Shown: positions 5,775 to 27,684 of the stretch, in pieces
Layout of the letters: the number at the start of each line of letters is the position of its first letter
How positions within the stretch are numbered: the stretch's first letter is position 1
Virus record (IMG/VR): IMGVR_UViG_3300045988_188311
Location: 8,293-40,292 of that record
Length of the DNA stretch: 32,000 nucleotides
From: a virus
Direction: 5' to 3' (one strand)
The notes under the pieces: generated by a model
Database searches by the model: none
Told to the model about the DNA's origin: nothing
What the model saw: only the letters and a program-made list of their open reading frames with translations
Translations under genes and position numbers: made by a program

Positions 5775-5916
5775 AGAAGAACATTTACGCCAAATGAAAA
5801 GCGTTGAAGAAGAATTAGAAAACACGACATCAGAATATAGAAAAAGAGATTTAAGAAAAAGATTACAAAGGCTTAAAAAGCAATTGAATCAATATGATTG
5901 TTATAGGGGGTATTAA
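5767..5916 (+). CDS. Small basic coiled-coil ORF (49 aa), not in the track
   Basis: The ATG overlaps the radical-SAM stop (ATGTCTAG). Product: MSREEHLRQMKSVEEELENTTSEYRKRDLRKRLQRLKKQLNQYDCYRGY. The SD is weak. Confidence 0.35.
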   Translation: MSREEHLRQMKSVEEELENTTSEYRKRDLRKRLQRLKKQLNQYDCYRGY

Positions 5917-5917
5917 A

Positions 5918-6259
5918 ATAGCAGAGAAACACGCAGGAGGACGTCCAAGAGTAAAGATTGATTATGAAGCAGTTGAAAAGCTTGCTTCTATTGGATGTAC
6001 TCAAGAAGAAATTGCAGATTTTCTAGGATGTTCGGTAAGAACATTATTAAGAAATGAAAAGTTTTGTCAGACATATAAAAAAGGTATAAGCCACTCAAAA
6101 AGAAGCTTAAGACGTATGCAATTTGATAAGGCTTCAAAAGGAAATACGACAATGCTTATTTGGTTAGGTAAACAAATGCTTGGGCAGTCCGAAAAGGTTG
6201 AACAGACAATGACACATGAGATTGAGGACTTAACACCTTTGGCAGATTTATTGAAATGA
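5918..6259 (+). CDS. Terminase small subunit (ATA start proposed; alternative ATG 5894 has no SD)
   Basis: GGRPRVKIDYEAVEKLASIGCTQEEIADFLGCSVRTLLR is a typical TerS HTH. The SD AGGGGG (5905-5910) lies 7 nt before ATA 5918. Confidence 0.7.
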   Translation: MAEKHAGGRPRVKIDYEAVEKLASIGCTQEEIADFLGCSVRTLLRNEKFCQTYKKGISHSKRSLRRMQFDKASKGNTTMLIWLGKQMLGQSEKVEQTMTHEIEDLTPLADLLK

Positions 6260-7593
6260 TGACTAGAACGATTCCTTGGGGGAAATTTTCAGATAAACAT
6301 AAGAAATATATTAAGACCGCCCTAAATTACAAACAAAGTGTAGCAGAAGGAGCGGTACGAAGTGGTAAAACGATTGACCACTGCATAATCTTTTCAATGT
6401 ATTTAGAAACATGTGAAGATAAAATACATTTAGCGAGTGGGTCAAGCTTACCGAATGCGAAATTAAATATAGGCGATTGCAATGGTTTCGGCTTAGAGCA
6501 TATCTTTCGTGGTCGGTGTCGTTGGGGTAAATACAAATCAAACGAAGCGCTATTTATTCAAACAAAGACAGGCGAAAAGATTGTTATATTTACAGGCGGT
6601 GGGAAGTCCGATTCATATAAGAGCATATTAGGTAACTCATATGGTGGATGGATAGCCACTGAAATAAATGAACATTATGATTGTGAGGATTCTAGAACAA
6701 GCTTTATCAAGGTAGCGATGGCAAGACAGATTGCAAGCGTACACCCATTTACATTATGGGATTTAAACCCATCAAACCCAAATGCAGACATCTATAAGAA
6801 TTACATAGATAAATTTATGGGATTAGATTGGTACAGATATGAGCACTTCAATATTTTTGACAACGCTACAATGAGCCAAGAAAGAATCGAAGAAATCAAA
6901 AACAAATATGACATGAATTCAGTATGGTACAAGCGAGATATTCTAGGGGAAAGAATGGTTGCCGAAGGACTTGTGTTCCCTTATTTTGCTAATGATTGTA
7001 AGCCTTACCTATTCAAATATCAAAGTCTAAAAGAAAAGATGAAGGAAGAAGGGAAAAGGTTCAGTCATTTAATCATAGGTGTTGACTTTGGAGACAACGG
7101 CTCGAAATATTCGTGGCACTTAACAGGATTCACGAACGATTGGGATTATATGTGGGCACTTGATGAAGGAGATATGGCAAAGTCAAATGCAATAGACGCA
7201 ACAAAGTTCTGCAAAGCATTTGTAAGGTTCTATAAGCGTTGTATTGAATGTTATGGATATGTCGAATGGATATTTTGCGATAGTGCTTCTAATACACTTA
7301 TAAACACGCTTAGAGCTTATTTTTACGCCGAAGGATTAGACGGAAGTATAATTGCACCGGTTAAGAAGAATGAGCTAACTGACCGTCCTATAACGGTTGA
7401 TAGCTTACTTGTTACAGGAAGGTTAAAGATAGAAGAACATTGTAAGAATTTAATAAATGCATTGAGCGAATTAGTATGGGATGAAAAGAAAGACATCCCA
7501 AAAGATGAGAACGTAAACAATATTAATGATGATTGGGATTCGTTCTGCTATACATTTATCACACATAGCAAGTATATAGATTTAAGGAGGTAA
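6256..7593 (+). CDS. Terminase large subunit
   Basis: Walker A motif GAVRSGKT and a C-terminal nuclease-type region. ATGA overlap with TerS. Size and position are typical. Confidence 0.9.
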   Translation: MMTRTIPWGKFSDKHKKYIKTALNYKQSVAEGAVRSGKTIDHCIIFSMYLETCEDKIHLASGSSLPNAKLNIGDCNGFGLEHIFRGRCRWGKYKSNEALFIQTKTGEKIVIFTGGGKSDSYKSILGNSYGGWIATEINEHYDCEDSRTSFIKVAMARQIASVHPFTLWDLNPSNPNADIYKNYIDKFMGLDWYRYEHFNIFDNATMSQERIEEIKNKYDMNSVWYKRDILGERMVAEGLVFPYFANDCKPYLFKYQSLKEKMKEEGKRFSHLIIGVDFGDNGSKYSWHLTGFTNDWDYMWALDEGDMAKSNAIDATKFCKAFVRFYKRCIECYGYVEWIFCDSASNTLINTLRAYFYAEGLDGSIIAPVKKNELTDRPITVDSLLVTGRLKIEEHCKNLINALSELVWDEKKDIPKDENVNNINDDWDSFCYTFITHSKYIDLRR

Positions 7594-7596
7594 GAA

Positions 7597-9000
7597 ATAG
7601 AAACATCTAACACACGTAGACCGTGGTTTCAAAATTACCTAAACGACAGAGGGTATTATGTAGATACAAACGCAATTGAGATTATTGAATTGTGCAATAA
7701 GTGGTATACAAATACCGAAACAGAATTTCATACGGCATACACCTTAAATAACGAGGAATACACGCTCGACAAGACAGACTTTGCAAAGCGGTTATGCGAG
7801 GATGACGCAAACTTAATTGAAATCCTAGATATAAACGCAACAGAGGACAGTGTTACAAATGATATTATTTCAGACATTCTAACAAAGAATAGGTTTGATG
7901 TAATGTATAGGAAACAAGTTGAGCAGATGTCTGCAAATGGTACGGTAGGAGCTTATGTGACGGTATCAAATGCCGAGATTTATGAAGATGGTTCATTCAG
8001 TGGAGGAGAAATCAGAATCAATTATTGTGATTCAATGAATATCCTACCGTTAACTGTTATCAATGATGAAATTGTGGAAGTTGCTTTCGTTGGGGTAAAT
8101 TACGAAAAACTGAAAAAAGTATATGTCATGGTCATGTTCTTAAAAGGACAAGACGAAAGATATATTGCAGAAACACATTACTTTAAAGAAACAGGAGAAG
8201 AAATAAAAGACCGTGCTCAGATTGTTCAATTAGATGTGATTAAGCCGTTTGCAATTATGAGAAACGCAAAGGTAAACAACTTACAAATGCAAGGTTACGG
8301 CTTACCGAAGATTTGGAGCGCAATCGCTCCTTTGAAAACAATTGATTTAACAATGACAATGTGGAATCGTGATTTGTTGAAGTCCGATAAAATCGTTCTT
8401 GTGAATGAAGCATTAATGCAGAAAGACGAGAATGGAAAGATTAAGATGAATCCACAAATGAAAAAGATTTTTGTTCAGTTAGGTAGGGATAAGCTACCGG
8501 AAGAAAAAGCTTTATGGCAAGAATACAATCCAACAGTAAGAACGGCAGAAGTTGTTCAATCGTTAGAAACTGCATTAAGTATTCTATCAATGATGTTTGG
8601 ATTCGGTACAAAAAAATATACGTTTGAAAGTGGAAGAATTGTAACGGCTACAGAATATATCGGTGAGAATCAAGACGCAATGAAAGAAGTAAATTCACAA
8701 CGTAAAGAATCTACTGCATATATTCAAGATATTATTCAAGCGATAGCATACTTTTATGAATTAACACAAGGCAGAAAGCTTAATATCAATTCATTAGACA
8801 TTGCTATTGATTATGACGATACATATATTGAGGACAAGCAAAGCACTGCAGAATCGTTAAGAAATGACGCATTAACATTTGATATTCCAAGATTAAAGAT
8901 TATGTATTTCATGAAGCAATACGGCTTTACAGAAGAAGAAGCAACGGAATTGTTGAATGAAGAAATTCAAGATGATGGAGAGGGGGATGAAGAAGAATAG
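7597..9000 (+). CDS. Portal protein (ATA start)
   Basis: Typical size, position after TerL and acidic C-terminus. The frame opens at 7594. The SD AAGGAGG (7584-7590) lies 6 nt before ATA 7597. The track's TTG 7690 has no SD. Confidence 0.8.
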   Translation: METSNTRRPWFQNYLNDRGYYVDTNAIEIIELCNKWYTNTETEFHTAYTLNNEEYTLDKTDFAKRLCEDDANLIEILDINATEDSVTNDIISDILTKNRFDVMYRKQVEQMSANGTVGAYVTVSNAEIYEDGSFSGGEIRINYCDSMNILPLTVINDEIVEVAFVGVNYEKLKKVYVMVMFLKGQDERYIAETHYFKETGEEIKDRAQIVQLDVIKPFAIMRNAKVNNLQMQGYGLPKIWSAIAPLKTIDLTMTMWNRDLLKSDKIVLVNEALMQKDENGKIKMNPQMKKIFVQLGRDKLPEEKALWQEYNPTVRTAEVVQSLETALSILSMMFGFGTKKYTFESGRIVTATEYIGENQDAMKEVNSQRKESTAYIQDIIQAIAYFYELTQGRKLNINSLDIAIDYDDTYIEDKQSTAESLRNDALTFDIPRLKIMYFMKQYGFTEEEATELLNEEIQDDGEGDEEE

Positions 9001-9803
9001 CAACTACATATTTTCCGTTCGTATCAAGGAGCGGTGATAGATTAGTATTATATGACGCATTCAGAAGATTGTTTTCAAGCTATTTCACGAATGGTGTATT
9101 CATAGATGATTCTAGTTCAGACCATTTACGAGTTGTTAAAGCTCAAGGATTGACATTAACAGTTAAAGCAGGACGAGCGAATATTAACGGAGCATTCTAT
9201 TGGCAGAAAGATGACGAAACCATAACGCTAGAGCAGAATAGCGCTACTAAAAGCTACAATATTATTCTTAGATTGAATGACAATGACGCATACAGAAATA
9301 TTACATTAGTAGCAAGTGATATCAATGATGGAATTACAAGAAGTGATTCTATCTACGATTTAGTGTTGGCTACGGTTACAGTAACAGGTAATGCAGGCGA
9401 AATTAAAGGTTCAGATATTACTGATACAAGATTAGATTCAACACGTTGTGGCGCAGTTACGAGCGCTATTAAGAGCGTGCAATCGTTGGATTTATTCACT
9501 CAAGTAACGGAGCTATTCAAAGAAATCAAGGCTCAGAATGAATCTGAAATGAATGAAAATAGAACAGAGTTCAACGATTGGTTTGAAACTGTAAAAGATA
9601 CATTAGATAAGAATACGGCAGGTAAGTTATCGAACAGAATTTCAAACATTGAAAATATGATTATGGAGAACCATTTCACTACGATTCTATTAACAGAAGA
9701 TGGAACACTAGTGGATGAGAATGGGCATGAGATTTTAGCAGATTGGGCTTATGAAGTTGAATCCGGTGAAGTAGGTACAGATTGGACTTACAAAGTGAAA
9801 TAG
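8997..9803 (+). CDS. Fibre/baseplate-associated structural protein (ATA start overlapping the portal stop)
   Basis: With the ATA start the N-terminus reads ATTYFPFVSRSGDRLVLYDAFRRLFSSYFTNGV. This motif is one I recall from N-termini of Firmicute phage fibre-type proteins, and it is lost if the track's TTG 9069 is used. Confidence 0.6.
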   Translation: MATTYFPFVSRSGDRLVLYDAFRRLFSSYFTNGVFIDDSSSDHLRVVKAQGLTLTVKAGRANINGAFYWQKDDETITLEQNSATKSYNIILRLNDNDAYRNITLVASDINDGITRSDSIYDLVLATVTVTGNAGEIKGSDITDTRLDSTRCGAVTSAIKSVQSLDLFTQVTELFKEIKAQNESEMNENRTEFNDWFETVKDTLDKNTAGKLSNRISNIENMIMENHFTTILLTEDGTLVDENGHEILADWAYEVESGEVGTDWTYKVK

Positions 9804-9814
9804 AGGTGATACAT

Positions 9815-11820: not shown

Positions 11821-11821
11821 C

Positions 11822-11959: not shown

Positions 11960-12009
11960 ATAAGAATATAGTTGATTAATTGAATATATAAAAAAAGGAG
12001 GAATAGAGA

Positions 12010-12921: not shown

Positions 12922-12930
12922 GAGGAAGCT

Positions 12931-13278: not shown

Positions 13279-13279
13279 T

Positions 13280-13399: not shown

Positions 13400-13415
13400 G
13401 CATTAAAAGCGTTTT

Positions 13416-15332: not shown

Positions 15333-16202
15333 ATACCAAATCAAATTGCATTAGCTAAAACGTATGTCTCAAATTTGGATGAGGTATATAAGTTAGCTTC
15401 AGTTACAGGTGATTTAAACGCAAACGCTACAATGGTACGAGCCGGAGCAAATGCCAAAGAAATCATCTATCCACAAATTTCAGTCAAAGGGTTAGGAAAC
15501 TATGATAGAAATAGTGGTTATACAGGCAACTCAGTTAAGTTAGAATGGAAAACTGCTACATTCGACTATGATAGAGGAACTAAAATCTCAGTTGATACAC
15601 AAGATAACGCAGAATCAATGAATATTGCATTCGGTATGGCAGGAGCAGAATTAATGCGTACAAAGGTAGCACCGGAAGCGGACGCTTACACATTCGCTAA
15701 AATTGCAGGCACAACAGGAATCACAAAGGTTTCAGAAGATTATACAGGTGCAGAAGAGTTCTTGAGTGCATTGTTAACGGCTATCACTAAAATGGATGAG
15801 GATGAAGTTCCTAGCGAACAACGTATCTTGTATTCAACACCAACATTATTAAATAGCGTTAAGGCGTTGGACACTTATAAATCTCGTGAAGCTTTACAAG
15901 GATTTGCAAAAGTTGTTCCTGTACCTGCTAGCCGTTTCTATACAAAAATCAAATTGTTGAGTGGAAAAGATACAGAGTTAGAAGGCGGATACGAAAAAGC
16001 GGAGGATGGACACGTAATCAACTTCTTGATTGTTCATAAACCTGCCGTTATGAAATGGGATAAACACACCGTTTCAAATGTAATTCCGGCAAGCAATAAC
16101 ATTGAATCAGATTCAGATGTACTAAAATATCGTAAATATGGAATCGTTGATGTATACCAAAATAAGGTAGCAGGTGTTTACTTATCTGCTAGTGCTAAGT
16201 AA
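15333..16202 (+). CDS. Major capsid protein (ATA start)
   Basis: Position and size fit. The frame opens at 15330. The SD AAGGAGG (15317-15323) lies 9 nt before ATA 15333. The track's TTG 15375 has no SD. Confidence 0.8.
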   Translation: MPNQIALAKTYVSNLDEVYKLASVTGDLNANATMVRAGANAKEIIYPQISVKGLGNYDRNSGYTGNSVKLEWKTATFDYDRGTKISVDTQDNAESMNIAFGMAGAELMRTKVAPEADAYTFAKIAGTTGITKVSEDYTGAEEFLSALLTAITKMDEDEVPSEQRILYSTPTLLNSVKALDTYKSREALQGFAKVVPVPASRFYTKIKLLSGKDTELEGGYEKAEDGHVINFLIVHKPAVMKWDKHTVSNVIPASNNIESDSDVLKYRKYGIVDVYQNKVAGVYLSASAK

Positions 16203-16674: not shown

Positions 16675-17090
16675 TAGGATTCTTTGAAGATTCAATCACA
16701 CTTGTAAATCACTACTATGACACATTGACAAGAGAAGATAGATTTCAAGCTTCTATTCTTGATAAATGTATGTGGAGACAATCAACTGTTAGAACTGCAA
16801 ACGGTAATATTCTGAGCATAGCCACATCCACAAATATTACCATTCTATATCGTGATGGATATGTTGAACCTTACGCATATGCGAAACTTTCAAATGATGA
16901 GAAACAAAAACACTTTACATTAAATACAGATAAAACTGATTTCGTATTCTTTGGAGAAGTCGAAGAAGATTTATCTAACATCAAGGCAATTAACGAAGCA
17001 AAAAAGAAATACAAATGGACAACCGTTCAAAGCGTAACAGATTGTACTAATGTCGATATGTTGAAGCATTGGGAGGTTGTCGGTCAATAG
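16671..17090 (+). CDS. Head closure / connector protein (putative)
   Basis: ATGA overlap start at 16671 is preferred over the track's TTG 16626. Call rests on synteny. Confidence 0.5.
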   Translation: MIGFFEDSITLVNHYYDTLTREDRFQASILDKCMWRQSTVRTANGNILSIATSTNITILYRDGYVEPYAYAKLSNDEKQKHFTLNTDKTDFVFFGEVEEDLSNIKAINEAKKKYKWTTVQSVTDCTNVDMLKHWEVVGQ

Positions 17091-17449
17091 GGATTAAAGT
17101 TAAACTTGATGTTAAATCACTTCAAGAATTTAAACAATCAAGAGGACTTGAAGAACGTGGGCGTGTGCAACAAATGATTGATTCTGAAGTGATTAGGCTT
17201 ATGACACCTTACACGCCTAGAGATACAGGAGCATTAATTAACTCGGCTACAAGAAATACTCAAATCGGAAGTGGATTAGTAAAGCAAGGTGGACCAAGTG
17301 CCCCTTATGCTAGACGGTGGTATTACAACAAAGAGGGTGCTCATTTCGTAGGAGGTAAAACAGACCATTGGTTTGAAAAAGCTATGCGAAATGGTGGAGC
17401 AGAAACAATCTTAAAAAAAGCACAACAAATGATAGGAGACGGAGAATGA
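17087..17449 (+). CDS. HK97 gp10-like head-tail joining protein (ATA start overlapping the upstream TAG)
   Basis: The N-terminus GIKVKLDVKSLQEFKQ fits this family. GGGAGG (17071-17076) lies 10 nt before ATA 17087. The track's TTG 17069 lies upstream of the SD. Confidence 0.6.
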   Translation: MGIKVKLDVKSLQEFKQSRGLEERGRVQQMIDSEVIRLMTPYTPRDTGALINSATRNTQIGSGLVKQGGPSAPYARRWYYNKEGAHFVGGKTDHWFEKAMRNGGAETILKKAQQMIGDGE

Positions 17450-17865
17450 CAGTATCAAAAGCATTGATTCAATGGCTTTACGGCTATGGAAATATACAGA
17501 TAGATGAACGTATTGAAACGGATGTTTTAGCACAACAAGCTATCTCTTATGCGTTATACAAAGAACCTAACGCAATTGTAGATACATACATTGACGGCTC
17601 TCAAATGCGTACAGAATACTACACGTTTCTAGCTCGTAGGAATACACAGATTGAAGTTGAAAGGCAAGATAACAATGTTTTTCTAGAAGAATTAGAAAAT
17701 TGGATTGATGAAAAGAATTTAAACGGAGAATTGCCACAACTAGACGGAAACAGATATTGCGAGGATGTTTCCGTTTCAAGTGGTTTATATCTATACACGA
17801 ATGAGGATAGTCAAGCAGTATATGCGTTAACTATTCAAATTAAATACAGAAAGGAGCTTAATTAA
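17446..17865 (+). CDS. Tail completion / tail terminator protein (putative)
   Basis: Synteny. ATGA overlap start with the GGAGACGGAG context. Confidence 0.5.
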   Translation: MTVSKALIQWLYGYGNIQIDERIETDVLAQQAISYALYKEPNAIVDTYIDGSQMRTEYYTFLARRNTQIEVERQDNNVFLEELENWIDEKNLNGELPQLDGNRYCEDVSVSSGLYLYTNEDSQAVYALTIQIKYRKELN

Positions 17866-18371
17866 TAGCAACTCAAGGAACTGAAATAACTACAGGGCAG
17901 ACAGTCAAAAAGTATATGATTGGATTGTTCTTAGAAATGGGAACAGGTTACAAGCGAATTAAGAAGTCTACAACTTTAGATATTTCGTTTAACGGTGAAA
18001 CTGAAACGTATGACTTTATCGCAGATAAGAACCCAACAGAATCATTAAAGAGTTATTCACCTCAGATTTCGCAAGATTTAACAATGATTAAAGGCGAAGA
18101 TGACTTTGAATATATTTACGAACAAATGATGAAATCCGTTCCAAACAATGAAGAAGTAAACACAAAAGCTTTAATCGTCTTCATGTTTGACGGAGACAAG
18201 ACAAAAGGCTATAAAGCATGGGAAGTTGACTCAAAATTAATTTTCGACACGTTGAGTGGTGTTGATTCAAAAATCAACTTCAACATTAACTTTGCAAGCG
18301 ATATTCGTGTCGGTATTGCAAAGGTAGCAGATGGAACAGTAACATTTACAGAAGGCACATCAGAAGTATAA
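17865..18371 (+). CDS. Major tail (tube) protein (ATA start)
   Basis: AAAGGAG (17850-17856) lies 8 nt before ATA 17865, giving ATQGTEITTGQTVKKYMIG. The track's ATG 17916 lacks an SD. Position before the chaperones and tape measure fits. Confidence 0.7.
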   Translation: MATQGTEITTGQTVKKYMIGLFLEMGTGYKRIKKSTTLDISFNGETETYDFIADKNPTESLKSYSPQISQDLTMIKGEDDFEYIYEQMMKSVPNNEEVNTKALIVFMFDGDKTKGYKAWEVDSKLIFDTLSGVDSKINFNINFASDIRVGIAKVADGTVTFTEGTSEV

Positions 18372-19312: not shown

Positions 19313-19332
19313 AAAAGGAGGTGGCAAATTGA

Positions 19333-21912
19333 ATATCAGACGGAACATTAAAGTTTGAAACAAAGATTGATACAAGTGGTCTAGAGAATGGTATTAAATC
19401 TGTAAAGGTTGTATCAAGTGAAGCAACAAATGCTATTAAAGATACTTCAAAAGCGATTGATAAGCTAGGCTCTGATGGTTCAAAAGCACCACCAAAAATC
19501 AAAGAAAAACTTAAAGATTTAAACGAAGAGCAAAAGAATACACAAACAGAAACGCAAGAAACAGGTTCTAAATTTGATGTATTTAAACAAGTAGGAAACA
19601 GTGCCTTAGAATCAATTCAAGGTGGATTTGATGGACTATTAGGAAAGATTCAGAACATTAGTCCGGAAGCTTCTGCAATCACTGAAACCTTAACAGGATT
19701 AGGCGTAGGAGGTGTCGTTGGTGTTACTGCCGTAGCAGGAGCCGTCGGTGGTATGGCACTAGCTATTAAGACAGGTGTTAACCAAGCTATGGAATTAGAT
19801 GACGCTATGGCAAAGTTTCAAGCTCAGACAGGTGCTTCAAGTAATGAAATGAGCAAATTTAAAAACATTGCTCGTGATGTTTGGTCTAATAATTTCGGTG
19901 AAGATATTTCAGATGTAGCCGATATGATGGGCCGTGTCAAACAACAAATGCAAGGCATAAGTGATATTGATTTAAAGAATGTTACAGAAGACTTGATTAC
20001 ATTAAGAGACGTTTACGGCATGGATGAAAATGAGACTCTTAGAGGTGCAAAGCAATTAATGGAACAGTTCGGAATTAGTTCCGAAAAAGCTTTTGACCTT
20101 ATGGCAAAAGGTGCTCAGAATGGTTTGAATTATTCCGATGAATTAGGAGACAATATCGCAGAATACGCAGGTAAATTCAAGCAAGCAGGATATTCGGTAG
20201 AAGAATATTTCCAAACTATGACAAATGGTGTAAAAGGCGGTTCTTATAACCTTGATAAAATGCAAGACGCAGTAAATGAAATTACTACACGAATGTCAGA
20301 CGGAACTATTGAAAAATCATTAGATAGTTTTAACGATAAAACAAAAGAAGTTTTTCAGGCATATAAAGAAGGCGGTGCAACACAGAAAGATGTACAAGAC
20401 GCAATTGTCCAAGATATTAAGGAAACAACAAATCAACAAGAAGCATTAAATAAAGCAAGCATTGCATTCGGCACAATGGGAGAAGATTTCAACCTTAAGT
20501 TTATTACATCCTTATCATCTGTAGGTGATGAATATAACAATGTAGCCGGAACAATGGATAAGGTTAAAGCTATTGCAAATGGTGGATTAAAGAACGCTTT
20601 AAGCGGATTAGGCCGTGCATTTCTTGATTCATTTACTCCAATAGGCGAACTTATTACTCCTATTCTTTCCGGTATTATTGGATTGATAACTGTAGCGATA
20701 CAAGGTATTCAACAAGGGTTTGCAAAAGTTGGTGATGTAATTTCAAATGTATTAAGTAAGATTGATACAAGTGGAATTACAGAATTGACAAGTCAAGTTT
20801 CCAAAGTGTTAGCTCCTGCGTTTAAAGAAGTAAAAAAAGCAATTGACGAAATGAAAGTTGCGCTTGAACCTATCGCAAAAGAAATCTTAGGTAAAATTGG
20901 TAACGCAATTCAAAATGTAGTAAACCAAGCTCAAAAGATTCTTAGTGTAGTAGGACCACCAATTCTAGCGATTATCAAAAAGATTATTCAAACGGTAGTT
21001 GGAATGATTCCTGTAATAACATCTATTCTTCAAGTAGTTGGAAGTGTTGTAAGTGGTATCATCTCATTTATTAATACAGTAATTTCTGTTGTAGGAACTG
21101 CAATTGCAACAATACTAGGCTTTATCATGCCTATTGTTCAAATTGTAGCTACAATTGTAGCGAATATTTGGTCTGTAATATTAATAGTTGCGCAGAATAT
21201 TTGGAGCAAAGTCAGTGAAGTAGTAACTGCAATTATTGGATTTGTAAGCAATTTGTTTAAAATAGTTTCGGACATCATAAACAATATTTGGAGTAAGATT
21301 CAAGATTCCATGAACAAGGTAAGAGACAAGGTTCAAGGCGTTGTCGACAATATTAATAAATATTTCAATAATGTTAAGGATACCGTTTCGGATGTATTCA
21401 ATGGTATTTGGTCTAAAGTTCAAGGTGTAATGGATAATGTAGGTAATAAAATTTCAAATGTTCTACAAGGAATACAGAATTCATGGAATGGCTTGACAGG
21501 GTTTGTAAGTGGCGTATTTGGTGGAATTGAAGGAGCGGTTAGTTCATTAGTTGGAAGTGTAAAAGGAATGGTAAATGGTGTTATCGGTGGCATTAACGGC
21601 GCTATCGGTATCATCAACAAGATTCCCGGTGTACACATTGGAAGGATTCCAAGACTAGAGCGTGGGGGTGTATTGAAGCGTGGTCAAATCGGTTTATTGG
21701 AAGGTAATGGAGCAGAAGCAGTCGTTCCTTTAGAAAAAAACAAAGCATGGATTCGTGCCGTAGCTAAAGATATGGCTCAAATCATGCCGAGCGTTACAAC
21801 TAATAACAACGGACAAACTATCAATTTCTACAATAAAGCTCAAAGTCCGGATGAAATCGCTAGAATGTTACGTATGCAAGCAAGATATGGATATGGAGGT
21901 GTGGTTCAATAG
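19333..21912 (+). CDS. Tape measure protein (ATA start, 859 aa)
   Basis: The frame is open for 140 codons upstream of the track's ATG 19753. GGAGGTGG (19317-19324) lies 8 nt before ATA 19333. The N-terminus SDGTLKFETKIDTSGLENGIK is TMP-like. Hydrophobic core with IWSKV repeats. Confidence 0.85.
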   Translation: MSDGTLKFETKIDTSGLENGIKSVKVVSSEATNAIKDTSKAIDKLGSDGSKAPPKIKEKLKDLNEEQKNTQTETQETGSKFDVFKQVGNSALESIQGGFDGLLGKIQNISPEASAITETLTGLGVGGVVGVTAVAGAVGGMALAIKTGVNQAMELDDAMAKFQAQTGASSNEMSKFKNIARDVWSNNFGEDISDVADMMGRVKQQMQGISDIDLKNVTEDLITLRDVYGMDENETLRGAKQLMEQFGISSEKAFDLMAKGAQNGLNYSDELGDNIAEYAGKFKQAGYSVEEYFQTMTNGVKGGSYNLDKMQDAVNEITTRMSDGTIEKSLDSFNDKTKEVFQAYKEGGATQKDVQDAIVQDIKETTNQQEALNKASIAFGTMGEDFNLKFITSLSSVGDEYNNVAGTMDKVKAIANGGLKNALSGLGRAFLDSFTPIGELITPILSGIIGLITVAIQGIQQGFAKVGDVISNVLSKIDTSGITELTSQVSKVLAPAFKEVKKAIDEMKVALEPIAKEILGKIGNAIQNVVNQAQKILSVVGPPILAIIKKIIQTVVGMIPVITSILQVVGSVVSGIISFINTVISVVGTAIATILGFIMPIVQIVATIVANIWSVILIVAQNIWSKVSEVVTAIIGFVSNLFKIVSDIINNIWSKIQDSMNKVRDKVQGVVDNINKYFNNVKDTVSDVFNGIWSKVQGVMDNVGNKISNVLQGIQNSWNGLTGFVSGVFGGIEGAVSSLVGSVKGMVNGVIGGINGAIGIINKIPGVHIGRIPRLERGGVLKRGQIGLLEGNGAEAVVPLEKNKAWIRAVAKDMAQIMPSVTTNNNGQTINFYNKAQSPDEIARMLRMQARYGYGGVVQ

Positions 21913-22778
21913 ATGTCAATAAAGTAAGAGTTATTGTCCGTAGGGATGATGGCAAAGAATTTGAAATCGACAACAAAAGATGGAGAATACCATCTAGTGA
22001 CGGATTAGATGGATTTGATTATGTAGCACCTTCATATACTACACAAGACAATGCATTTGGAAATGGTGCTAGATTAATCGGTTCACGTATTCCAACGAAA
22101 GAAAGAAGCGTGAAAGCTATCTTTAAGGGCTCGCTAGAAGAAAAAAGAGAAGAAAGGGAGAAGCTACGGCGCTTCTTCCAATATTCTCATGTCTTTGATG
22201 TAATAGTTGAGTATATGGGAGAAAAGAAATATTGCAGAGGTCGTTTATATGCGTATAGCTTGCCTACTGTTAACATCTACAAAGATTTAGAGCTTAACTT
22301 TACGATTCTATGCACGCAACCTTTATTGCTTTCATTTGATGATTTCGCAAGGAATATCGCAGAAATTGGCGAAGGTTTAGCGTTCAATTTTGAAATACCG
22401 GAAACAGGCGTAAACTTTGGAACATTTACATTCGCTAGAGAAATCTATATTGATAATCAAGGTGATACAGAAACATACTGTAGAGCCGTTATTGAAGCGT
22501 TTGGAGAGGTTACAAATCCAAAACTATTCAACAAAGATAAATATATTCGTGTATTAGATACGCTACACAATGGTGATGTATTAGAAATTGATTTAGTTTC
22601 TGAGCCTATCTCGATTAAAAAGAATGGTGTGAATTGTATTGGCAAAGTTGACAGAACATCATCATTCAATGATATGACAATTCAGTTAGGCGAGAATATC
22701 ATAGGATATACTGCCGACAATGGAGATACGAATCTAGCTTGCACTGTTTACTATAATGAAAGGTATTTAGGTTTATAA
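21909..22778 (+). CDS. Distal tail protein Dit (ATA start overlapping the TMP TAG)
   Basis: The frame is open for 67 codons upstream of the track's GTG 22110. GGAGGTG (21895-21901) lies 7 nt before ATA 21909. Position after the TMP fits. Confidence 0.7.
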   Translation: MDVNKVRVIVRRDDGKEFEIDNKRWRIPSSDGLDGFDYVAPSYTTQDNAFGNGARLIGSRIPTKERSVKAIFKGSLEEKREEREKLRRFFQYSHVFDVIVEYMGEKKYCRGRLYAYSLPTVNIYKDLELNFTILCTQPLLLSFDDFARNIAEIGEGLAFNFEIPETGVNFGTFTFAREIYIDNQGDTETYCRAVIEAFGEVTNPKLFNKDKYIRVLDTLHNGDVLEIDLVSEPISIKKNGVNCIGKVDRTSSFNDMTIQLGENIIGYTADNGDTNLACTVYYNERYLGL

Positions 22779-22779
22779 C

Positions 22780-23793: not shown

Positions 23794-23806
23794 AGGAGTG
23801 AATTTA

Positions 23807-24316
23807 ATAAAAAAGAAAGATGATGGAGGATTTAAGCAAATAGCAAGAAGTATGTATTTTCTAGACAAAATGAATGCAATAGGGGGTGTAGCCGTTGCCG
23901 TATTAACATACGTATTAGGTGAACATTGGTATTTATTCGCATTCTTCTTATTCATGAACGTTGTGGATTACATTACAGGGTGCATGAAATCGGCTATCGC
24001 TCACAAGCTAAACAGTAATAAAGGATGGATTGGAGTCCTTAAAAAGCTAGGATATTGGATTATGATTGTGGTTGCGTTTGCATTCAGTGTATTCTTGGTG
24101 GAAATTGGCGAAATGTTAGGAATTGATTTCCGTGTAACTACATTATTAGGTTGGTTTGTACTAGCTTCTCTATGTATTAATGAGGTGCGTAGTATCATTG
24201 AGAACCTTGTACAATGTGGATATAGCGTCCCTAGTGTATTAACTAAAGGATTAGAAGTAGCAGATAAACTCATTAACGAAGAACAAGACAATGACGACTC
24301 AAGTACCTTGGAATGA
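23807..24316 (+). CDS. Holin, 'toxin secretion/phage lysis' (TcdE-like, holin_4_1) class (ATA start)
   Basis: FFLFMNVVDYITGCMKSAI...SNKGWIGVLKKLGYWIMIVVA plus several TM segments. AAAGGAG (23792-23798) lies 8 nt before ATA 23807. The track's GTG 23798 is inside the SD. Confidence 0.7.
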   Translation: MKKKDDGGFKQIARSMYFLDKMNAIGGVAVAVLTYVLGEHWYLFAFFLFMNVVDYITGCMKSAIAHKLNSNKGWIGVLKKLGYWIMIVVAFAFSVFLVEIGEMLGIDFRVTTLLGWFVLASLCINEVRSIIENLVQCGYSVPSVLTKGLEVADKLINEEQDNDDSSTLE

Positions 24317-24557: not shown

Positions 24558-24581
24558 GAGGTTGAAAAGCCTCTTTTTTTG
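24557..24581 (+). terminator. Rho-independent terminator (GAAA tetraloop)
   Basis: AGAGGTT-GAAA-AGCCTCT followed by TTTTTTT. Confidence 0.75.
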
Positions 24582-24658
24582 ACATTTATATGATATTAAC
24601 ACGGAAACAAATTGAGATTGAACCTGAATATAATTAGGGTTGTAAAGAGGTGAGCGAA

Positions 24659-25084
24659 ATGTATAATCCAATCAATGACAGAATTAACAATTTAATGAAT
24701 CAAAAGCAGATGATTGAATCACAATTACAAAATATTCAACAGTTAGCAAATATTCCACCTATTAATATTAATAATCAAATTACACCTAACATGGCATTAA
24801 ATGATTTCAATGGAAAATGGGTCAACAATGAGCAAGAAGCAAGAAATATGATTGTAAATGGTTTGCCTAGTATTATGCTAGATAGAAATGATTCAGTGTT
24901 CTATATGAAATCATTAGACGGCAGTTTCAAGAAATACAGATTCCAAGAAGAAACAGAGCCAAAGAAAGACAATATAGAACAACGCTTAGACAAGCTAGAA
25001 GCTATGATATTAGGCTTAACAAACGGAAATAATATAAATACAAAGGCAGAGAAAGAAACGCCTAGAAAGGAGCTTAAAGCGTGA
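24659..25084 (+). CDS. Hypothetical Q/N-rich protein
   Basis: The ATG at 24659 is 8 nt after GAGGTG (24645-24650). The track's GTG 24650 lies in the SD. N-terminal Q/N/I-rich coil. Confidence 0.6.
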   Translation: MYNPINDRINNLMNQKQMIESQLQNIQQLANIPPININNQITPNMALNDFNGKWVNNEQEARNMIVNGLPSIMLDRNDSVFYMKSLDGSFKKYRFQEETEPKKDNIEQRLDKLEAMILGLTNGNNINTKAEKETPRKELKA

Positions 25085-25290
25085 ATCCTTTAATGAATAT
25101 GATGAACCCTCAACAGATGTTGTTAGGGATGTTACAACAAAAAAATCCACAAGCATTTAATCAAGTACAACAATTAATGCGAAGTGGGCAGAATCCCCAA
25201 GTATTATTAAATAATATGATGGGGCAGTTAACGCCACAACAGAAGCAACAATTTGAAAACGTGGCTAGTCAATATGGGCTAAAACGCTAA
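25081..25290 (+). CDS. Small Met/Gln/Pro-rich protein
   Basis: GTG start 8 nt after AAGGAG. Product: MNPLMNMMNPQQMLLGMLQQKNPQAFNQVQQLM... Confidence 0.55.
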   Translation: MNPLMNMMNPQQMLLGMLQQKNPQAFNQVQQLMRSGQNPQVLLNNMMGQLTPQQKQQFENVASQYGLKR

Positions 25291-25314
25291 TTGCGTTGAA
25301 AGGAGGAAATATAA

Positions 25315-25926
25315 ATGGAAAGCATGAATGGTATTCAACCAATGTACGATTTAGCAGACAGAAACAACAATGAATGGGGTAGTGGAAATTGGATTTGGAT
25401 TATCCTTCTATTCTTCTTATTTGGCGGAAATTGGGGTAATAATGGCAACTTGCAGAATGACGCATTAATGAATCAAGAATTTATTAAACGTGATTTATTC
25501 AATACAAACCAGAATGTATCTAGCCAAGGTTACCAAAATTCAAGAGATATCTTAGAAAGCCGATACACTACACAATTAGGTTTACAGAATCTAGGTCAAC
25601 AGAACCAAGAATGTTGTTGTGCAACGCAAAGAGCGATTGATGGTGTAAACGCACAAAGCTTTAAGAATACGTGCGATATTACAACTGCAATTCACTCAGA
25701 AGGCGAAGCAACAAGAGCATTGATTAATGCTAACACAATGCAAGAGTTGCGTGATAAATTAGCAGACAGAGACCGAGAGCTATTGACTACTAATTTCCAA
25801 TTGAGTCAACAAGCGCAATCTGCGAATATCATTAATACATTGCAACCAACGCCAAAACCTGCATATATTACTTGCTCGCCTTATTACGCATACAATATGA
25901 CAGGTTGCGGATGCAATCAAATCTAG
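25315..25926 (+). CDS. Membrane-anchored Q/N-rich protein with Cys clusters
   Basis: Consensus SD. A TM segment WIWIILLFFLF is flanked by G/N/W repeats. Also contains ECCCATQ and the C-terminal ITCSPYYAYNMTGCGCNQI. Confidence 0.6.
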   Translation: MESMNGIQPMYDLADRNNNEWGSGNWIWIILLFFLFGGNWGNNGNLQNDALMNQEFIKRDLFNTNQNVSSQGYQNSRDILESRYTTQLGLQNLGQQNQECCCATQRAIDGVNAQSFKNTCDITTAIHSEGEATRALINANTMQELRDKLADRDRELLTTNFQLSQQAQSANIINTLQPTPKPAYITCSPYYAYNMTGCGCNQI

Positions 25927-25961
25927 CTCGAAAGAGATTAGGCAACAGCCTTTGGATTATA

Positions 25962-25990
25962 GGGTAGTCGAAAGGCTACCCATTTATTTT
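25962..25990 (+). terminator. Rho-independent terminator (GAAA tetraloop)
   Basis: GGGTAGTC-GAAA-GGCTACCC followed by ATTTATTTT. Confidence 0.65.
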
Positions 25991-26008
25991 ATATAGGAGG
26001 AAAAGAAA

Positions 26009-26428
26009 ATGATTAATAGTATAGCAACGGCAATTCAGACTGTATCAAATGGACAAAATGTATTATTTCCAACGGATAGAGTAAGAACGAAATCATGTCA
26101 ATGTGCTTGTAAAGGTTGGCTCGCTCATGATGTAGGTAGTGGACTATTCACATTGACGAAACAAGGAATCTATGAAGTAGAATATACTGCAGATATTACA
26201 AGTGAAACAGTAGGAGTTGCTTCTTTAGAATTAGAACAGAATGGAGAAGCAGTAGGAGGGACAGAATCTTCATATAATGTAGCTACTGCGAATGCATACG
26301 GAAATGTAAGTGGAGCTACATTGATTCAAGTACCTTGTGGAGCTTCTTACACCATCACATTAGGAAATAACAGTGGTTTAGATTTATCTGTTCAGAATGC
26401 GAATATCATCATTAAGAAATTAGCGTAG
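26009..26428 (+). CDS. BclA C-terminal-domain-like (C1q/TNF-like jelly-roll) protein without a collagen stalk
   Basis: GLFTLTKQGIYEVEYTADITSETVG..LELEQNGEAVGGTESS...NANIIIKKLA parallels my recollection of the Bacillus BclA C-terminal domain (..FYKITV..IQVNG..SASIIIEKVA). Confidence 0.6.
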   Translation: MINSIATAIQTVSNGQNVLFPTDRVRTKSCQCACKGWLAHDVGSGLFTLTKQGIYEVEYTADITSETVGVASLELEQNGEAVGGTESSYNVATANAYGNVSGATLIQVPCGASYTITLGNNSGLDLSVQNANIIIKKLA

Positions 26429-26435
26429 GTGTATC

Positions 26436-26873
26436 ATGCAAGAGGTTAGGAAACGAAATCTAGACCTCTTAACGGAAGCAATGAGAGGACTAGAAAAAGG
26501 ATACAATGATTTAGATTTCAGAGTCATGAGCCAAGCTTTAGACAATATCAAAGACATCGATACAATACTAGCTATGAGTGATGGAAGAACGGCTATAAAT
26601 TCATTAAAAACAAATGATACAGATATCGAAGGAACGGAAATTGATGACAATATCGCATTGATGAATAGCCATTTCAGAAAATATATAGAAGCAAAAAAAG
26701 AATATCGAAAAGATAACAATGAAATTGATAAGCGAACTTCTATTCGTGAATTAGAAGCTTTTCTTAGTGCTATGTATGGGATTTTAGAAGAAATGAAAAC
26801 GTCTAGCGATTTTCAAGAAGAAAGAGAAATGGTTAGAGATAAATTAAGAGAAATGTTCTCTGTATATCAGTAA
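26436..26873 (+). CDS. Hypothetical helical protein
   Basis: ATG after TAGGTG. No motif recognised. Confidence 0.55.
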   Translation: MQEVRKRNLDLLTEAMRGLEKGYNDLDFRVMSQALDNIKDIDTILAMSDGRTAINSLKTNDTDIEGTEIDDNIALMNSHFRKYIEAKKEYRKDNNEIDKRTSIRELEAFLSAMYGILEEMKTSSDFQEEREMVRDKLREMFSVYQ

Positions 26874-26888
26874 AAAAAACCTCTTTTA

Positions 26889-26900
26889 TGTGCTATAATT
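26889..26900 (+). promoter_or_regulatory. Extended -10 promoter TGTGCTATAATT in front of the endolysin
   Basis: TGn plus a perfect TATAAT (26894-26899). The identical 12-mer recurs at 27958-27969. Confidence 0.55.
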
Positions 26901-26922
26901 GGTACATAAAGGAGGATTTTTA

Positions 26923-27684
26923 ATAAATTATCAAAATTTTAAAAAAGCCGTATTAGGCAAAGCGTTCGACATTGACGGATACTATGGTGCGCAGTGTTGG
27001 GACGGATTCGCAAAGTACATGATTGATTTAGGCTATCAAGCTATCCATTGCACGACAAGTAGTTTTGTTAAGGACATTTGGAACAACCGAAAAACAAATG
27101 GTATCTTGAATTATTGCAATGAGGTATCAATCATGCAACCGGGAGACATTGCCGTCTTTAAAGAAGTAGCAGGAGTTACGCCATACAGTCATATTGCAAT
27201 CTTTGATTCTGATATTGACGGAAAGCAAGGATGGTTCTTGGGCCAAAACCAAGGTGGAAAAGGTGGAGCATTCAATTTAATTAAATTGCCTTATTATGCA
27301 ACCTTTGATACTGCGTTTAGACCTAAATGTTTTGCGAATACAGGAGCAGTTAAACCAAGTATTCCACAACCCGTAGAAAAGATTGACCAAATCTTGCACG
27401 CAGGAAGCTACGTAACATCCGTACAAATGAAGATTGGCAATCAAGGATTGAAACAAATCAATAGCGATTTATGCGCATACCTTGCACCATTAGGTGGTTG
27501 GTTTCCGATTCGTTTAGTTGATAAAGTTCGTAATTCTGATGGCTACAATGACAATGTATTGCATACAACAAATGCGATTGTCTATGTTACAAGAATTCGC
27601 GTTGATGAAGTCAACGTACAAAAGAACCTTGCGAAAATCGGTGGAATTTGGGTAAATTGTGTCCCATTAATTGAAGTAGCATAA
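26923..27684 (+). CDS. Endolysin: N-terminal CHAP peptidase/amidase plus C-terminal wall-binding domain (ATA start)
   Basis: DIDGYYGAQCWD supplies the CHAP catalytic Cys context, and YSHIAIF the His. AAGGAGGA (26909-26916) lies 6 nt before ATA 26923. The track's TTG 26899 overlaps the -10 box. Confidence 0.8.
   Translation: MNYQNFKKAVLGKAFDIDGYYGAQCWDGFAKYMIDLGYQAIHCTTSSFVKDIWNNRKTNGILNYCNEVSIMQPGDIAVFKEVAGVTPYSHIAIFDSDIDGKQGWFLGQNQGGKGGAFNLIKLPYYATFDTAFRPKCFANTGAVKPSIPQPVEKIDQILHAGSYVTSVQMKIGNQGLKQINSDLCAYLAPLGGWFPIRLVDKVRNSDGYNDNVLHTTNAIVYVTRIRVDEVNVQKNLAKIGGIWVNCVPLIEVA

What the first reader, a model, noticed from the sequence alone, without database searches (positions are those of the whole stretch)
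5904..26925. Ten or more late genes initiate at ATA behind strong Shine-Dalgarno sites
For each gene below, the track ORF starts at an internal or SD-overlapping ATG/TTG/GTG with no ribosome-binding site. In each case the frame is open upstream to an ATA at canonical SD spacing.
- TerS: AGGGGG, 7 nt, ATA 5918.
- Portal: AAGGAGG, 6 nt, ATA 7597.
- Fibre anchor: GGGGGA, 9 nt, ATA 8997.
- Major capsid: AAGGAGG, 9 nt, ATA 15333.
- gp10-like: GGGAGG, 10 nt, ATA 17087.
- Tail tube: AAAGGAG, 8 nt, ATA 17865.
- Tape measure: GGAGGTGG, 8 nt, ATA 19333. This is 140 codons before the first ATG, and they encode a typical TMP N-terminus.
- Dit: GGAGGTG, 7 nt, ATA 21909, which is 67 codons before the track's GTG.
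- Holin: AAAGGAG, 8 nt, ATA 23807.
- Endolysin: AAGGAGGA, 6 nt, ATA 26923.
- Possible eleventh: ATA 2385.

The endolysin is the clearest case. The track's TTG 26899 overlaps the TATAAT box, so it is probably not transcribed. The next in-frame ATG lies beyond the CHAP catalytic Cys.

Four junctions mimic ATGA/TAATG coupling. ATA overlaps the upstream TAG at 8997, 17087 and 21909, and forms TAATA at 17863-17867.

Accessory and insert genes use ATG or GTG instead. These include the five genes between holin and lysin, the post-lysin cassettes, most of the fibre module and the early genes.

Inference: translation of the core lytic proteins depends on the phage tRNA(UAU). That would act as a translational lock or timer, keep prophage late genes silent even if transcribed, and leave the accessory genes translatable in the lysogen.
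Basis: partly seen in the sequence, partly recalled or inferred. Interest (0 to 1): 0.93.

Follow-up and report, generated by a model that had tools for sequence, protein, structure and literature searches.

The report
Phage initiator-like tRNA for ATA starts
A Holdemanella prophage starts at least ten essential genes at ATA instead of ATG and carries its own tRNA, built like an initiator tRNA but with the matching UAU anticodon, which would be the first natural case of a virus bringing a private start codon.

Summary
All ten ATA codons sit at the stated coordinates behind strong Shine-Dalgarno sites. In each gene ATA is the only well-placed start candidate. Homologues begin with ATG at the same codon for the capsid protein and within 0-2 codons for portal, lysin and tape measure. 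Across 268 distinct relative sequences the codon is ATA 264 times and ATG 4 times, never anything else. A second lineage, 54-61% identical in capsid and portal proteins, has the same ATA or ATG choice in 9 of 9 orthologous genes.

The tRNA at 2929-3004, missed by ARAGORN, has anticodon UAU. Its body is initiator-like: a 1:72 mismatch, G2:C71, C3:G70, A11:U24 and an invariant G30:C40. It is 67% identical to E. coli initiator tRNA and 51-53% identical to elongator Met and Ile2 tRNAs. It has U37, and the base before all 20 ATA starts is A.

Best reading: a phage-encoded initiator tRNA decodes AUA starts, probably inserting isoleucine. The "late-gene lock" idea is only partly supported. Early genes also use ATA, many late genes use ATG, and AUA starts are leaky in Firmicutes. 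No published precedent was found. All evidence is computational.

The parts
2929..3004 (+). Phage tRNA with anticodon UAU (loop CUUAUUA, U37), an initiator-like body and an encoded CCA
   Evidence: Rfam tRNA, 48.8 bits. A1xA72 mismatch, G2:C71, C3:G70, A73, D stem GAGC/GCUC (A11:U24), G30:C40. 66.7% identical to E. coli metZ, against 51-53% to metT and ileX. Cloverleaf covaries and 1:72 is never paired. Present in all 43 loci that cover this region.
2889..2922 (+). Terminator-like hairpin with a T run, then an extended -10-like TGtAATAAT ending 6 nt before the tRNA 5' end
   Evidence: The promoter reading is inference from the sequence only.
3087..3111 (+). Terminator-like hairpin downstream of the tRNA
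5918..6259 (+). Small terminase, ATA start (SD AGGGGG, 7 nt)
   Evidence: ATA in 18 of 18 distinct relative sequences. A non-orthologous TerS allele in relatives (shown for L260, L263, L267) and the second lineage's TerS also start at ATA.
7597..9000 (+). Portal, ATA start (SD AAGGAGG, 6 nt)
   Evidence: Frame opens 1 codon upstream. ATA in 35 of 35. A 44%-identical homologue has ATG one codon away. The second-lineage orthologue (61% identical) starts at ATA.
8997..9803 (+).
   Evidence: SD duplex -15.7 kcal/mol. PHROG head protein aligned from residue 3. ATA in 36 of 36.
15333..16202 (+). Major capsid protein, ATA start (SD AAGGAGG, 9 nt)
   Evidence: 35 close relatives have ATA and 44 distant ones have ATG at the identical codon. 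The second lineage has ATA.
17087..17449 (+). Minor head or connector protein, ATA start overlapping the upstream TAG
   Evidence: ATA in 34 of 34. The second-lineage orthologue (58% identical) starts at ATA.
17865..18371 (+). Tail-tube-like protein, ATA start in TAATA
   Evidence: The PHROG profile begins before ATG 17916. 29 ATA and 1 ATG among relatives.
19333..21912 (+). Tape measure protein, ATA start directly after an in-frame TGA
   Evidence: SD duplex -16.7 kcal/mol, 140 codons before the first ATG. Tape-measure profiles align from residue 6. A distant homologue starts MPESDG against ISDG. ATA in 25 of 25.
21909..22778 (+). Distal tail protein Dit, ATA start overlapping the tape-measure TAG
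   Evidence: A homologue's annotated start lies 8 codons inside, far upstream of GTG 22110. ATA in 29 of 29.
23807..24316 (+). Holin, ATA start; a second SD+ATA start lies at 23840
   Evidence: 20 ATA and 3 ATG among relatives. One relative has ATG at both positions.
26923..27684 (+). CHAP endolysin, ATA start (SD AAGGAGGA, 6 nt)
   Evidence: The Met of Streptococcus phage B30 lysin aligns one codon upstream. The next ATG lies beyond the catalytic Cys. ATA in 3 of 3.
26880..26915 (+). 16-bp hairpin whose 3' arm is the lysin SD; its loop holds the extended -10 TGcTATAAT
   Evidence: dG -22.3 kcal/mol, conserved in relatives.
2385..2579 (+). Possible further ATA start (ATG 2391 shares the SD)
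   Evidence: ATA in 34 of 34 and ATG 2391 in 39 of 39. Cannot be resolved from sequence.

Best explanation
The prophage sits in a Holdemanella (Erysipelotrichaceae) chromosome. It encodes a tRNA derived from a bacterial initiator tRNA whose anticodon has changed from CAU to UAU.

Proposed mechanism:
- The tRNA enters the ribosomal P site at SD-positioned AUA codons by full Watson-Crick pairing.
- A fourth pair probably forms between U37 and the invariant A at mRNA position -1, giving a quadruplet AAUA:UAUU.
- It thereby initiates at least 10 genes in the window, and 13-14 in the whole prophage. These span replication, packaging, head, tail and lysis.
- The 1:72 mismatch with G2:C71 and C3:G70 would make it a substrate for formyltransferase and a poor one for EF-Tu. 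It would then act in initiation only and would not put Ile at internal AUG codons.
- It is most likely charged by the host IleRS, so these proteins would begin with (formyl-)isoleucine.

Shown here: the ATAs are the start positions. ATA is kept by selection, gene by gene, in two lineages. The tRNA has initiator hallmarks, its cloverleaf covaries, and it always co-occurs with the ATA starts.

Inferred: that this tRNA, rather than the host initiator, does the decoding; which amino acid it carries; formylation; and the biological purpose. Possible purposes are phage-private control of essential genes, a barrier to module exchange, or insurance against host attack on tRNAfMet.
For: 1. Start positions.
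- ATA is the only strong-SD candidate in ten ORFs.
- The capsid ATA aligns codon for codon with ATG in 44 distant viral homologues and in further phage and MAG homologues.
- Portal, lysin, tape measure, Dit and RusA homologues or profiles start within 0-8 codons of the ATA.

2. Selection on the codon.
- 264 of 268 distinct relative sequences keep ATA and 4 have ATG, with no other codon.
- Both holin starts are ATG together in one genome.
- The second lineage (L261/L224; TerL 73%, portal 61%, capsid 54% identity) has the same ATA or ATG state in 9 of 9 orthologous genes.

3. The tRNA.
- It has a UAU anticodon, an A1xA72 mismatch (C1xA72 in lineage 2), G2:C71, C3:G70, A73, A11:U24 and an invariant G30:C40.
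- The 1:72 mismatch with 2:71 and 3:70 are the formyltransferase determinants. G30:C40 alone suffices in E. coli, and au/GC/gu stems occur naturally in mycoplasmas (PMC5389676).
- It is closer to the E. coli initiator (67-79%) than to elongator Met or Ile2 (47-57%).
- Six pairs show compensatory changes, with 0 of 500 shuffles reaching the observed value.

4. Association.
- The tRNA is present in all 43 loci covering its site.
- A sister clade whose capsid gene starts at ATG carries an initiator-like tRNA with CAU and three G:C pairs instead.
- Other ATG clades and the host flanks show no ATA starts.

5. Position -1 and SD strength.
- The base at -1 is A in 20 of 20 ATA starts against 21 of 41 canonical starts (p = 7e-5).
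- The tRNA has U37, and position 37 of the initiator pairs with mRNA -1, with compensatory A37U behaviour shown in E. coli (PMC10018350).
- SDs are stronger at ATA genes (-12.5 against -9.25 kcal/mol, p = 0.0015).

6. Feasibility.
- Anticodon-mutant initiators initiate only at the complementary codon, with the amino acid set by the anticodon, and are partly formylated (bioRxiv 10.64898/2025.12.21.695813).
- B. subtilis IleRS charges a UAU tRNA well, and unmodified U34 binds AUA far better than AUG (PMC3919564).

7. Codon use. ATA is the rarest Ile codon inside genes and is rarer still in ATA-start genes. This argues against a codon-supplementing elongator.
Against: - There are no expression, charging or proteomic data. 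Everything rests on sequence.
- The window allele keeps only one of the three initiator G:C pairs (au/GC/ug, with 31:39 as U:G rather than G:U).
- The window allele has an odd elbow: A18, G55 and a bulged T stem. ARAGORN rejects it.
- U37 is very unusual for any tRNA.
- The tRNA lacks the E. coli IleRS body determinants, so which synthetase charges it is uncertain.
- AUA behind a strong SD can be read by the host initiator at about 10-30% of AUG in S. aureus. The tRNA is therefore not strictly required by what is shown here.
- Other initiator-like UAU tRNAs in unrelated viral contigs (A37 type) showed no ATA starts in the few kb held.
- Within the clade no genome lacks the tRNA, so there is no natural knockout to test the dependence.
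Confidence: 0.7

Rival explanations
1. The ATA codons are genuine starts but are read by the host initiator tRNAfMet (CAU) through a third-position mismatch. Unusually strong SDs compensate for the mismatch. ATA would then act as an attenuator or IF3-sensitive dial, as for infC, ccpN and citZ in S. aureus. The phage tRNA(UAU) would be incidental or only a modest booster.
For: S. aureus AUA starts with extended SDs give about 10-30% of AUG output (PMC13009471). SDs at ATA genes are significantly stronger. The window tRNA allele has a degenerate elbow and only one G:C pair.
Against: The major capsid, portal, tail tube and tape measure proteins are not candidates for attenuation. The perfectly complementary anticodon, the initiator hallmarks, the U37/A(-1) match and strict co-occurrence in two lineages would all be coincidences. 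Host flanks and related phages without the tRNA do not use ATA.
Confidence: 0.15
2. The tRNA(UAU) is an ordinary elongator that supplements decoding of internal AUA isoleucine codons, as in the classic codon-compensation idea. It would be unrelated to the ATA starts.
For: ARAGORN labels the sister alleles tRNA-Ile(tat). Phage tRNAs for rare codons are common (general knowledge).
Against: Position 1:72 is never paired in 9 of 9 distinct alleles, while every other acceptor pair is always paired. The body is initiator-like and not Ile-like. Position 37 is U rather than a purine. ATA is the least-used Ile codon, at 10% of Ile codons in ATA-start genes.
Confidence: 0.07
3. The real starts are the downstream ATG, TTG or GTG codons chosen by gene callers, and the upstream ATA-to-start stretches are untranslated.
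For: All public gene calls on these contigs use them.
Against: Those codons lack an SD. They would remove conserved N-termini, including 140 residues of the tape measure, the CHAP catalytic Cys (if the next ATG is used) and the first 14 conserved residues of the capsid protein. The frames open exactly at the ATA in four genes.
Confidence: 0.04
4. The pattern is an artefact or decay: G-to-A sequencing errors (for example from modified DNA) or start-codon knockouts in a dead prophage.
For: The phage encodes a putative DNA-hypermodification module, ParB_N plus TAGT.
Against: The same ATAs occur in dozens of independent assemblies from several studies and assemblers, and in a second lineage. In the window, 19 ATG or GTG starts also have A at -1 and read normally. 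The ORFs are intact and under purifying selection, and variation at the codon is restricted to ATA and ATG.
Confidence: 0.01

Closest known systems
Bacterial initiator tRNAfMet (for example E. coli metZ/metY)
   Same: 1:72 mismatch, G2:C71, C3:G70, A73, A11:U24 D stem, AGGUC variable loop, CAAAU-type T loop and G30:C40. 67-79% sequence identity.
   Different: The anticodon is UAU, not CAU. Position 37 is U, not A. Only 1-2 of the three consecutive G:C pairs remain. The window allele has A18, G55 and a T-stem bulge. It is phage-encoded. The amino acid is probably Ile, not Met (inferred).
Engineered orthogonal initiator tRNAs with mutated anticodons (amber initiator; i-tRNA-AAC, bioRxiv 10.64898/2025.12.21.695813)
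   Same: An initiator body with a non-CAU anticodon initiates only at the complementary codon. The amino acid follows the anticodon, and formylation is partial.
   Different: Those are laboratory constructs. This one is natural, is conserved in two phage lineages, and has co-evolved with a dozen or more essential genes and with the -1 base.
Stop-codon recoding in gut phages by phage-encoded suppressor tRNAs (bioRxiv 10.1101/2021.08.26.457843; PMC9523058)
   Same: A phage-encoded tRNA changes how a codon is read. The recoded codon sits in essential, largely structural and lytic genes. A role in timing or control of the lytic programme has been proposed (abstracts).
   Different: There a stop codon becomes a sense codon during elongation. 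Here a sense codon is used as a start codon through an initiator-type tRNA. ATA starts also occur in early genes.
Attenuating non-AUG start codons read by the host initiator (infC AUU/AUA; S. aureus ccpN, citZ; PMC13009471)
   Same: AUA start codons behind extended SD motifs in a Firmicute.
   Different: Those are isolated regulatory genes with no dedicated tRNA. Here there are at least 10 highly expressed structural and lysis genes plus a cognate initiator-like tRNA.
tRNAIle(UAU) elongators (Mycoplasma mobile; B. subtilis tilS suppressor; PMC3919564)
   Same: A UAU anticodon with, probably, unmodified U34 that reads AUA far better than AUG. Firmicute IleRS can charge it.
   Different: Those have a paired 1:72, a purine at 37 and Ile-type bodies, and they act in elongation.

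Membership tests
Bacterial initiator tRNA | [quoted passage not shown] | tested here: met
   AxA in the window clade and CxA in lineage 2. Never a standard pair in 9 of 9 distinct alleles, while pairs 2-7 are 100% paired.
Bacterial initiator tRNA | G2:C71 and C3:G70 (formyltransferase determinants) and A73 | tested here: met
   Invariant in all alleles. Their role is taken from PMC5389676.
Bacterial initiator tRNA | A11:U24 in the D stem | tested here: met
   The D stem is GAGC/GCUC, as in E. coli metZ. Elongator Met and Ile2 have the reverse orientation. The feature is listed in bioRxiv 10.64898/2025.12.21.695813.
Bacterial initiator tRNA | Three consecutive G:C pairs at 29:41, 30:40 and 31:39 | tested here: not met
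   The window allele is au/GC/ug. Other alleles are GC/GC/ug or au/GC/cg. Only G30:C40 is invariant. G30:C40 is the minimal essential element, and au/GC/gu occurs in mycoplasmas (PMC5389676).
Bacterial initiator tRNA | CAU anticodon, charged with Met and formylated | tested here: not met
   The anticodon is UAU. Charging and formylation cannot be tested with these tools.
Elongator tRNAIle(UAU) | Paired 1:72, purine at 37 and an Ile-type body | tested here: not met
   1:72 is mismatched and position 37 is U. Identity is 53% to E. coli Ile2 against 67% to the initiator.
Phage tRNA-driven codon reassignment | A phage-encoded tRNA whose anticodon matches a codon used in a non-standard role in phage genes but not in host genes | tested here: met
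   UAU tRNA plus at least 10 SD-ATA starts in the phage. 0-1 in about 35 kb of Holdemanella flank and 0-2 in related phages without it.
Phage tRNA-driven codon reassignment | The recoded codon is confined to late genes | tested here: not met
   RusA and a replication protein upstream of the window also start at ATA, and about 15 late genes use ATG or GTG.
Attenuating non-AUG starts read by the host initiator | Decoded by host tRNAfMet with reduced output | not testable with these tools
   Needs reporter or ribosome-profiling data. It is an unlikely design for capsid and tail proteins (inference).

The most novel reading that the evidence does not exclude
A natural orthogonal initiation system. 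A virus-encoded initiator tRNA has escaped the universal CAU anticodon and made AUA (read as the quadruplet A-AUA through U37) a private start codon. Essential phage proteins would then begin with (formyl-)isoleucine, and their translation would depend on a phage-supplied RNA.
Probability: 0.6. Interest if true: 0.95.

Novelty: categorically new. Interest (0 to 1): 0.9.

Why it matters
To my knowledge, every known cellular and organellar initiator tRNA carries a CAU anticodon. Start codons other than AUG are read by mismatch.

- A natural initiator-type tRNA with a different anticodon, co-evolved with a matched set of start codons, would break that rule.
- It would add start-codon recoding to the known ways in which phages alter the genetic code.
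- It would hand synthetic biology a ready-made orthogonal initiator and start-codon pair for a Firmicute.
- It could open a new layer of lytic-cycle control or of genetic isolation between phages.

There is also a practical consequence. Standard gene callers and tRNA finders mis-annotate these genomes. At least ten proteins are truncated in the gene calls stored for the public contigs examined, the tape measure by 140 residues, and ARAGORN misses the tRNA.

Tried and rejected
- Megablast of the 22-kb late region against GenBank phages found nothing.
- ARAGORN found no tRNA in the window. Rfam was needed.
- The genome-contig scan with the capsid protein found only distant prophages (at most 56% identity), all with ATG, so it did not identify the host. 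The host was identified instead from an exact flank-protein match to Holdemanella biformis.
- A naive count of codons downstream of SD motifs was too diluted to be informative. It was replaced by gene-level scans.
- The first metagenome pattern for lineage 2 found nothing. A pattern built on the shared anticodon arm worked.
- A search for more U37-type tRNAs in IMG/VR returned only this clade, L214, L224 and non-tRNA noise.
- Initiator-like UAU tRNAs with A37 occur in unrelated contigs (L142, L151, L153, L174, L185, L222). They showed no ATA starts in the short stretches held, so generality beyond two lineages is not shown.
- The consensus promoter scan found no sigma-70 site with a -35 at the lysin or the tRNA.
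- Sequencing error, DNA-modification miscalls and prophage decay were considered and rejected, as set out under the rival explanations.
- Eight literature searches found no prior report.

Full report
**What is there**

The window is identical to part of ENA contig ERZ1745618 NODE_152, which is 78.6 kb long. It is a siphovirus-type prophage. A flanking ABC ATPase is identical to a Holdemanella biformis protein (WP_050755978.1). The flank has a GC content of about 0.29-0.31 and the phage about 0.34.

All ten ATA sites are at the stated coordinates with the stated Shine-Dalgarno (SD) motifs and spacings. I scanned each stop-to-stop ORF and scored the SD-to-16S duplex before every candidate start. 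In ten ORFs the only candidate near the 5' end with a strong SD (-9.2 to -16.7 kcal/mol) is ATA. About 33 other genes have ATG, GTG or TTG.

Four of the ten frames open 0-1 codon before the ATA. Three ATAs overlap the upstream TAG as ATAG, and one forms TAATA.

A control counted ORFs that lack a canonical SD start but have a strong SD before a given codon. ATA scored 10 and nine other codons scored 0-4. Eleven related phage loci whose capsid gene starts at ATG scored 0-2 for ATA. Host flanks scored 0-1, and that single hit has an ATG three codons later.

**Are the ATAs the starts?**

For the major capsid protein the answer is unambiguous. All 35 close relatives (92-99% identity) have AAGGAGG, a spacer, then ATA. 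All 44 distant viral relatives (46-55% identity), plus GenBank phages and MAG prophages, have ATG at the identical aligned codon. An example is MPNTIALAK against IPNQIALAK.

Other genes agree:
- A 44%-identical portal begins with ATG one codon from the ATA.
- The Met of Streptococcus phage B30 lysin lies one codon upstream of the lysin ATA.
- A distant tape measure protein begins MPESDG against ISDG.
- A Dit homologue's annotated start lies 8 codons inside the ATA and 59 codons upstream of the gene caller's GTG.
- PHROG and Pfam profiles reach to within a few residues of the ATA for the capsid protein, the head protein at 8997, the lysin, the tail-tube-like protein and RusA.

**Conservation**

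I counted distinct 210-nt sequences from relatives at the ten sites. The codon is ATA in 264 of 268 and ATG in 4, and never anything else. Flanking identity falls as low as 83%.

The four exceptions are one tail-tube and three holin sequences. One relative has ATG at the holin start and also at a second internal SD+ATA codon (23840). That codon is otherwise always ATA. The pattern looks like a dual-start holin in which both starts are ATA.

A second lineage was found through its tRNA: L224, and the longer L261 (OKRT01001577.1). Its proteins are 22-73% identical to the window's. Its gene order and start codons are: tRNA, TerS ATA, TerL ATG, portal ATA, minor capsid ATG, scaffold ATG, capsid ATA, an extra small gene with ATA (8938, no window orthologue), two genes with ATG, and then ATA again. 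All 9 of 9 orthologous pairs share the same start type. At this divergence, a codon one transition away from ATG would not persist gene by gene without selection.

**The tRNA**

Rfam finds a tRNA at 2929-3001, with CCA extending to 3004. Its features are:
- an anticodon loop CUUAUUA, giving anticodon UAU and U37;
- an A1xA72 mismatch, G2:C71, C3:G70 and A73;
- a D stem GAGC/GCUC (A11:U24) and a variable loop AGGUC;
- an anticodon stem of type au/GC/ug.

It is 66.7% identical to the E. coli initiator metZ, against 51% to elongator Met and 53% to Ile2. Sister alleles are 71-79% identical to the initiator.

Across nine distinct alleles, six pairs show compensatory changes, and 0 of 500 shuffles reach the observed value. 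Position 1:72 is never paired even though base 1 changes from A to C. G30:C40 is invariant.

These are the initiator hallmarks. The 1:72 mismatch with pairs 2:71 and 3:70 directs formylation. G30:C40 alone sustains E. coli, and au/GC/gu stems occur naturally in mycoplasmas, which (as general knowledge) are relatives of the host's class (PMC5389676; feature list in bioRxiv 10.64898/2025.12.21.695813).

The window allele has an unusual elbow, with A18, G55 and one bulged T-stem base, and ARAGORN therefore misses it. An allele in the same phage clade (L214, L260) has G18G19, U55 and no bulge.

**Association between the tRNA and the ATA starts**

The tRNA lies directly (26 nt) after the same upstream gene in all 43 loci that cover the site.

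A sister clade has a capsid protein 54% identical that starts at ATG. It carries an initiator-like tRNA with CAU, three G:C pairs and a 1:72 mismatch. This gives a plausible origin by a single C34-to-U change.

The base before the start is A in 20 of 20 ATA starts and in 21 of 41 canonical starts (p = 7e-5). This matches U37, because position 37 of the initiator pairs with mRNA position -1 and A37U behaves in a compensatory way in E. coli (PMC10018350). The 20 starts include orthologous genes from two lineages, so they are not fully independent observations.

SDs at ATA genes are stronger on average. ATA is the rarest Ile codon inside genes, which argues against a role in codon supplementation.

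**Mechanism**

The best-supported reading is a phage-encoded initiator tRNA that decodes AUA start codons.

Published work makes this feasible. Anticodon-mutant initiators initiate only at the complementary codon, with the amino acid dictated by the anticodon, and they are partly formylated. A Firmicute IleRS charges a UAU tRNA well, and unmodified U34 binds AUA far better than AUG (PMC3919564).

The identity of the amino acid, formylation, exclusion from EF-Tu and the timing of tRNA expression are all inferred.

The tRNA is flanked by terminator-like hairpins. An extended -10-like TGtAATAAT ends 6 nt before its 5' end. This promoter reading is sequence inference only.

ATA is not specific to late genes. 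RusA and a replication protein, both just upstream of the window, start at ATA. About 15 late genes use ATG or GTG.

In S. aureus, AUA starts give about 10-30% of AUG output without any special tRNA. A strict lock is therefore unproven. Dependence of many essential genes on one phage RNA remains an attractive idea, but its purpose is open.

**Novelty and caveats**

Eight full-text searches found no report of a natural non-CAU initiator tRNA or of ATA-start phage genes.

The closest known systems are engineered orthogonal initiators, stop-codon recoding in phages, and attenuating AUA or AUU starts.

The evidence is entirely computational. Generality beyond two related low-GC lineages from human-associated samples is not shown.

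Noticed in passing
window 26880-26915: A 16-bp hairpin (dG -22.3 kcal/mol) followed by a U-rich tail lies between the upstream gene and the lysin. Its 3' arm is the lysin SD. Its loop holds a perfect extended -10 (TGcTATAAT). A transcript started there would free the SD, whereas read-through transcripts would have it sequestered. The hairpin is conserved in relatives.
   Followed up: partly
window 23807 and 23840: The holin has two SD+ATA starts 11 codons apart, separated by a charged KKKDD segment. Both are conserved. In one relative both are ATG. This looks like a holin/antiholin dual-start motif written in ATA.
   Followed up: partly
window 3130-5774: Directly after the tRNA lie a ParB_N protein, a TET-associated glycosyltransferase (PF20691) and a 435-aa protein with a weak radical-SAM match. 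Together they look like a DNA-hypermodification module.
   Followed up: no
window 2942-2948 and 2982-2988; L214 7928-8002: tRNA elbow variation within one phage clade. The window allele has A18, G55 and a bulged T-stem base. The L214 and L260 allele has G18G19, U55 and no bulge. This may be a coupled change at the D-loop/T-loop contact, which is a region IF3 touches.
   Followed up: partly
L042-L047, L072 (for example L042 9259-9332): A sister phage clade, with its capsid gene starting at ATG, carries an initiator-like tRNA about 700 nt upstream of that gene. It has a CAU anticodon, three G:C pairs and a GxG 1:72 mismatch.
   Followed up: partly
L185, L151, L174, L222, L142, L153: Unrelated IMG/VR contigs carry UAU tRNAs with initiator-type D stems. 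Four have 1:72 mismatches (CxU, AxA, GxA) and two have U1:A72. Five have A37 and L222 has G37. No ATA starts were seen in the few kb held.
   Followed up: partly
L006 1326 and 1708 (2.0-2.4 kb upstream of the window start): Two early genes, RusA and a replication-type protein beginning IAVIRVIKNKNYTVMSN, also start at SD+ATA. Gene callers truncated RusA by 28 codons in L006 (11 in L007) and started the replication protein at a codon 3 codons upstream of the ATA.
   Followed up: yes
L017 (IMGVR_UViG_3300045988_064919): This one genome has ATG at the tail-tube start and at holin start 23807, and probably at the second holin start 23840. Its tRNA carries a U47-to-C change in the variable loop. 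This may be the beginning of a reversion.
   Followed up: no
window 19330-19335; L261 3010-3015, 4795-4800, 7976-7981: Several ATA starts are immediately preceded by an in-frame TGA (TGAATA). This makes a stop-start junction without overlap.
   Followed up: no
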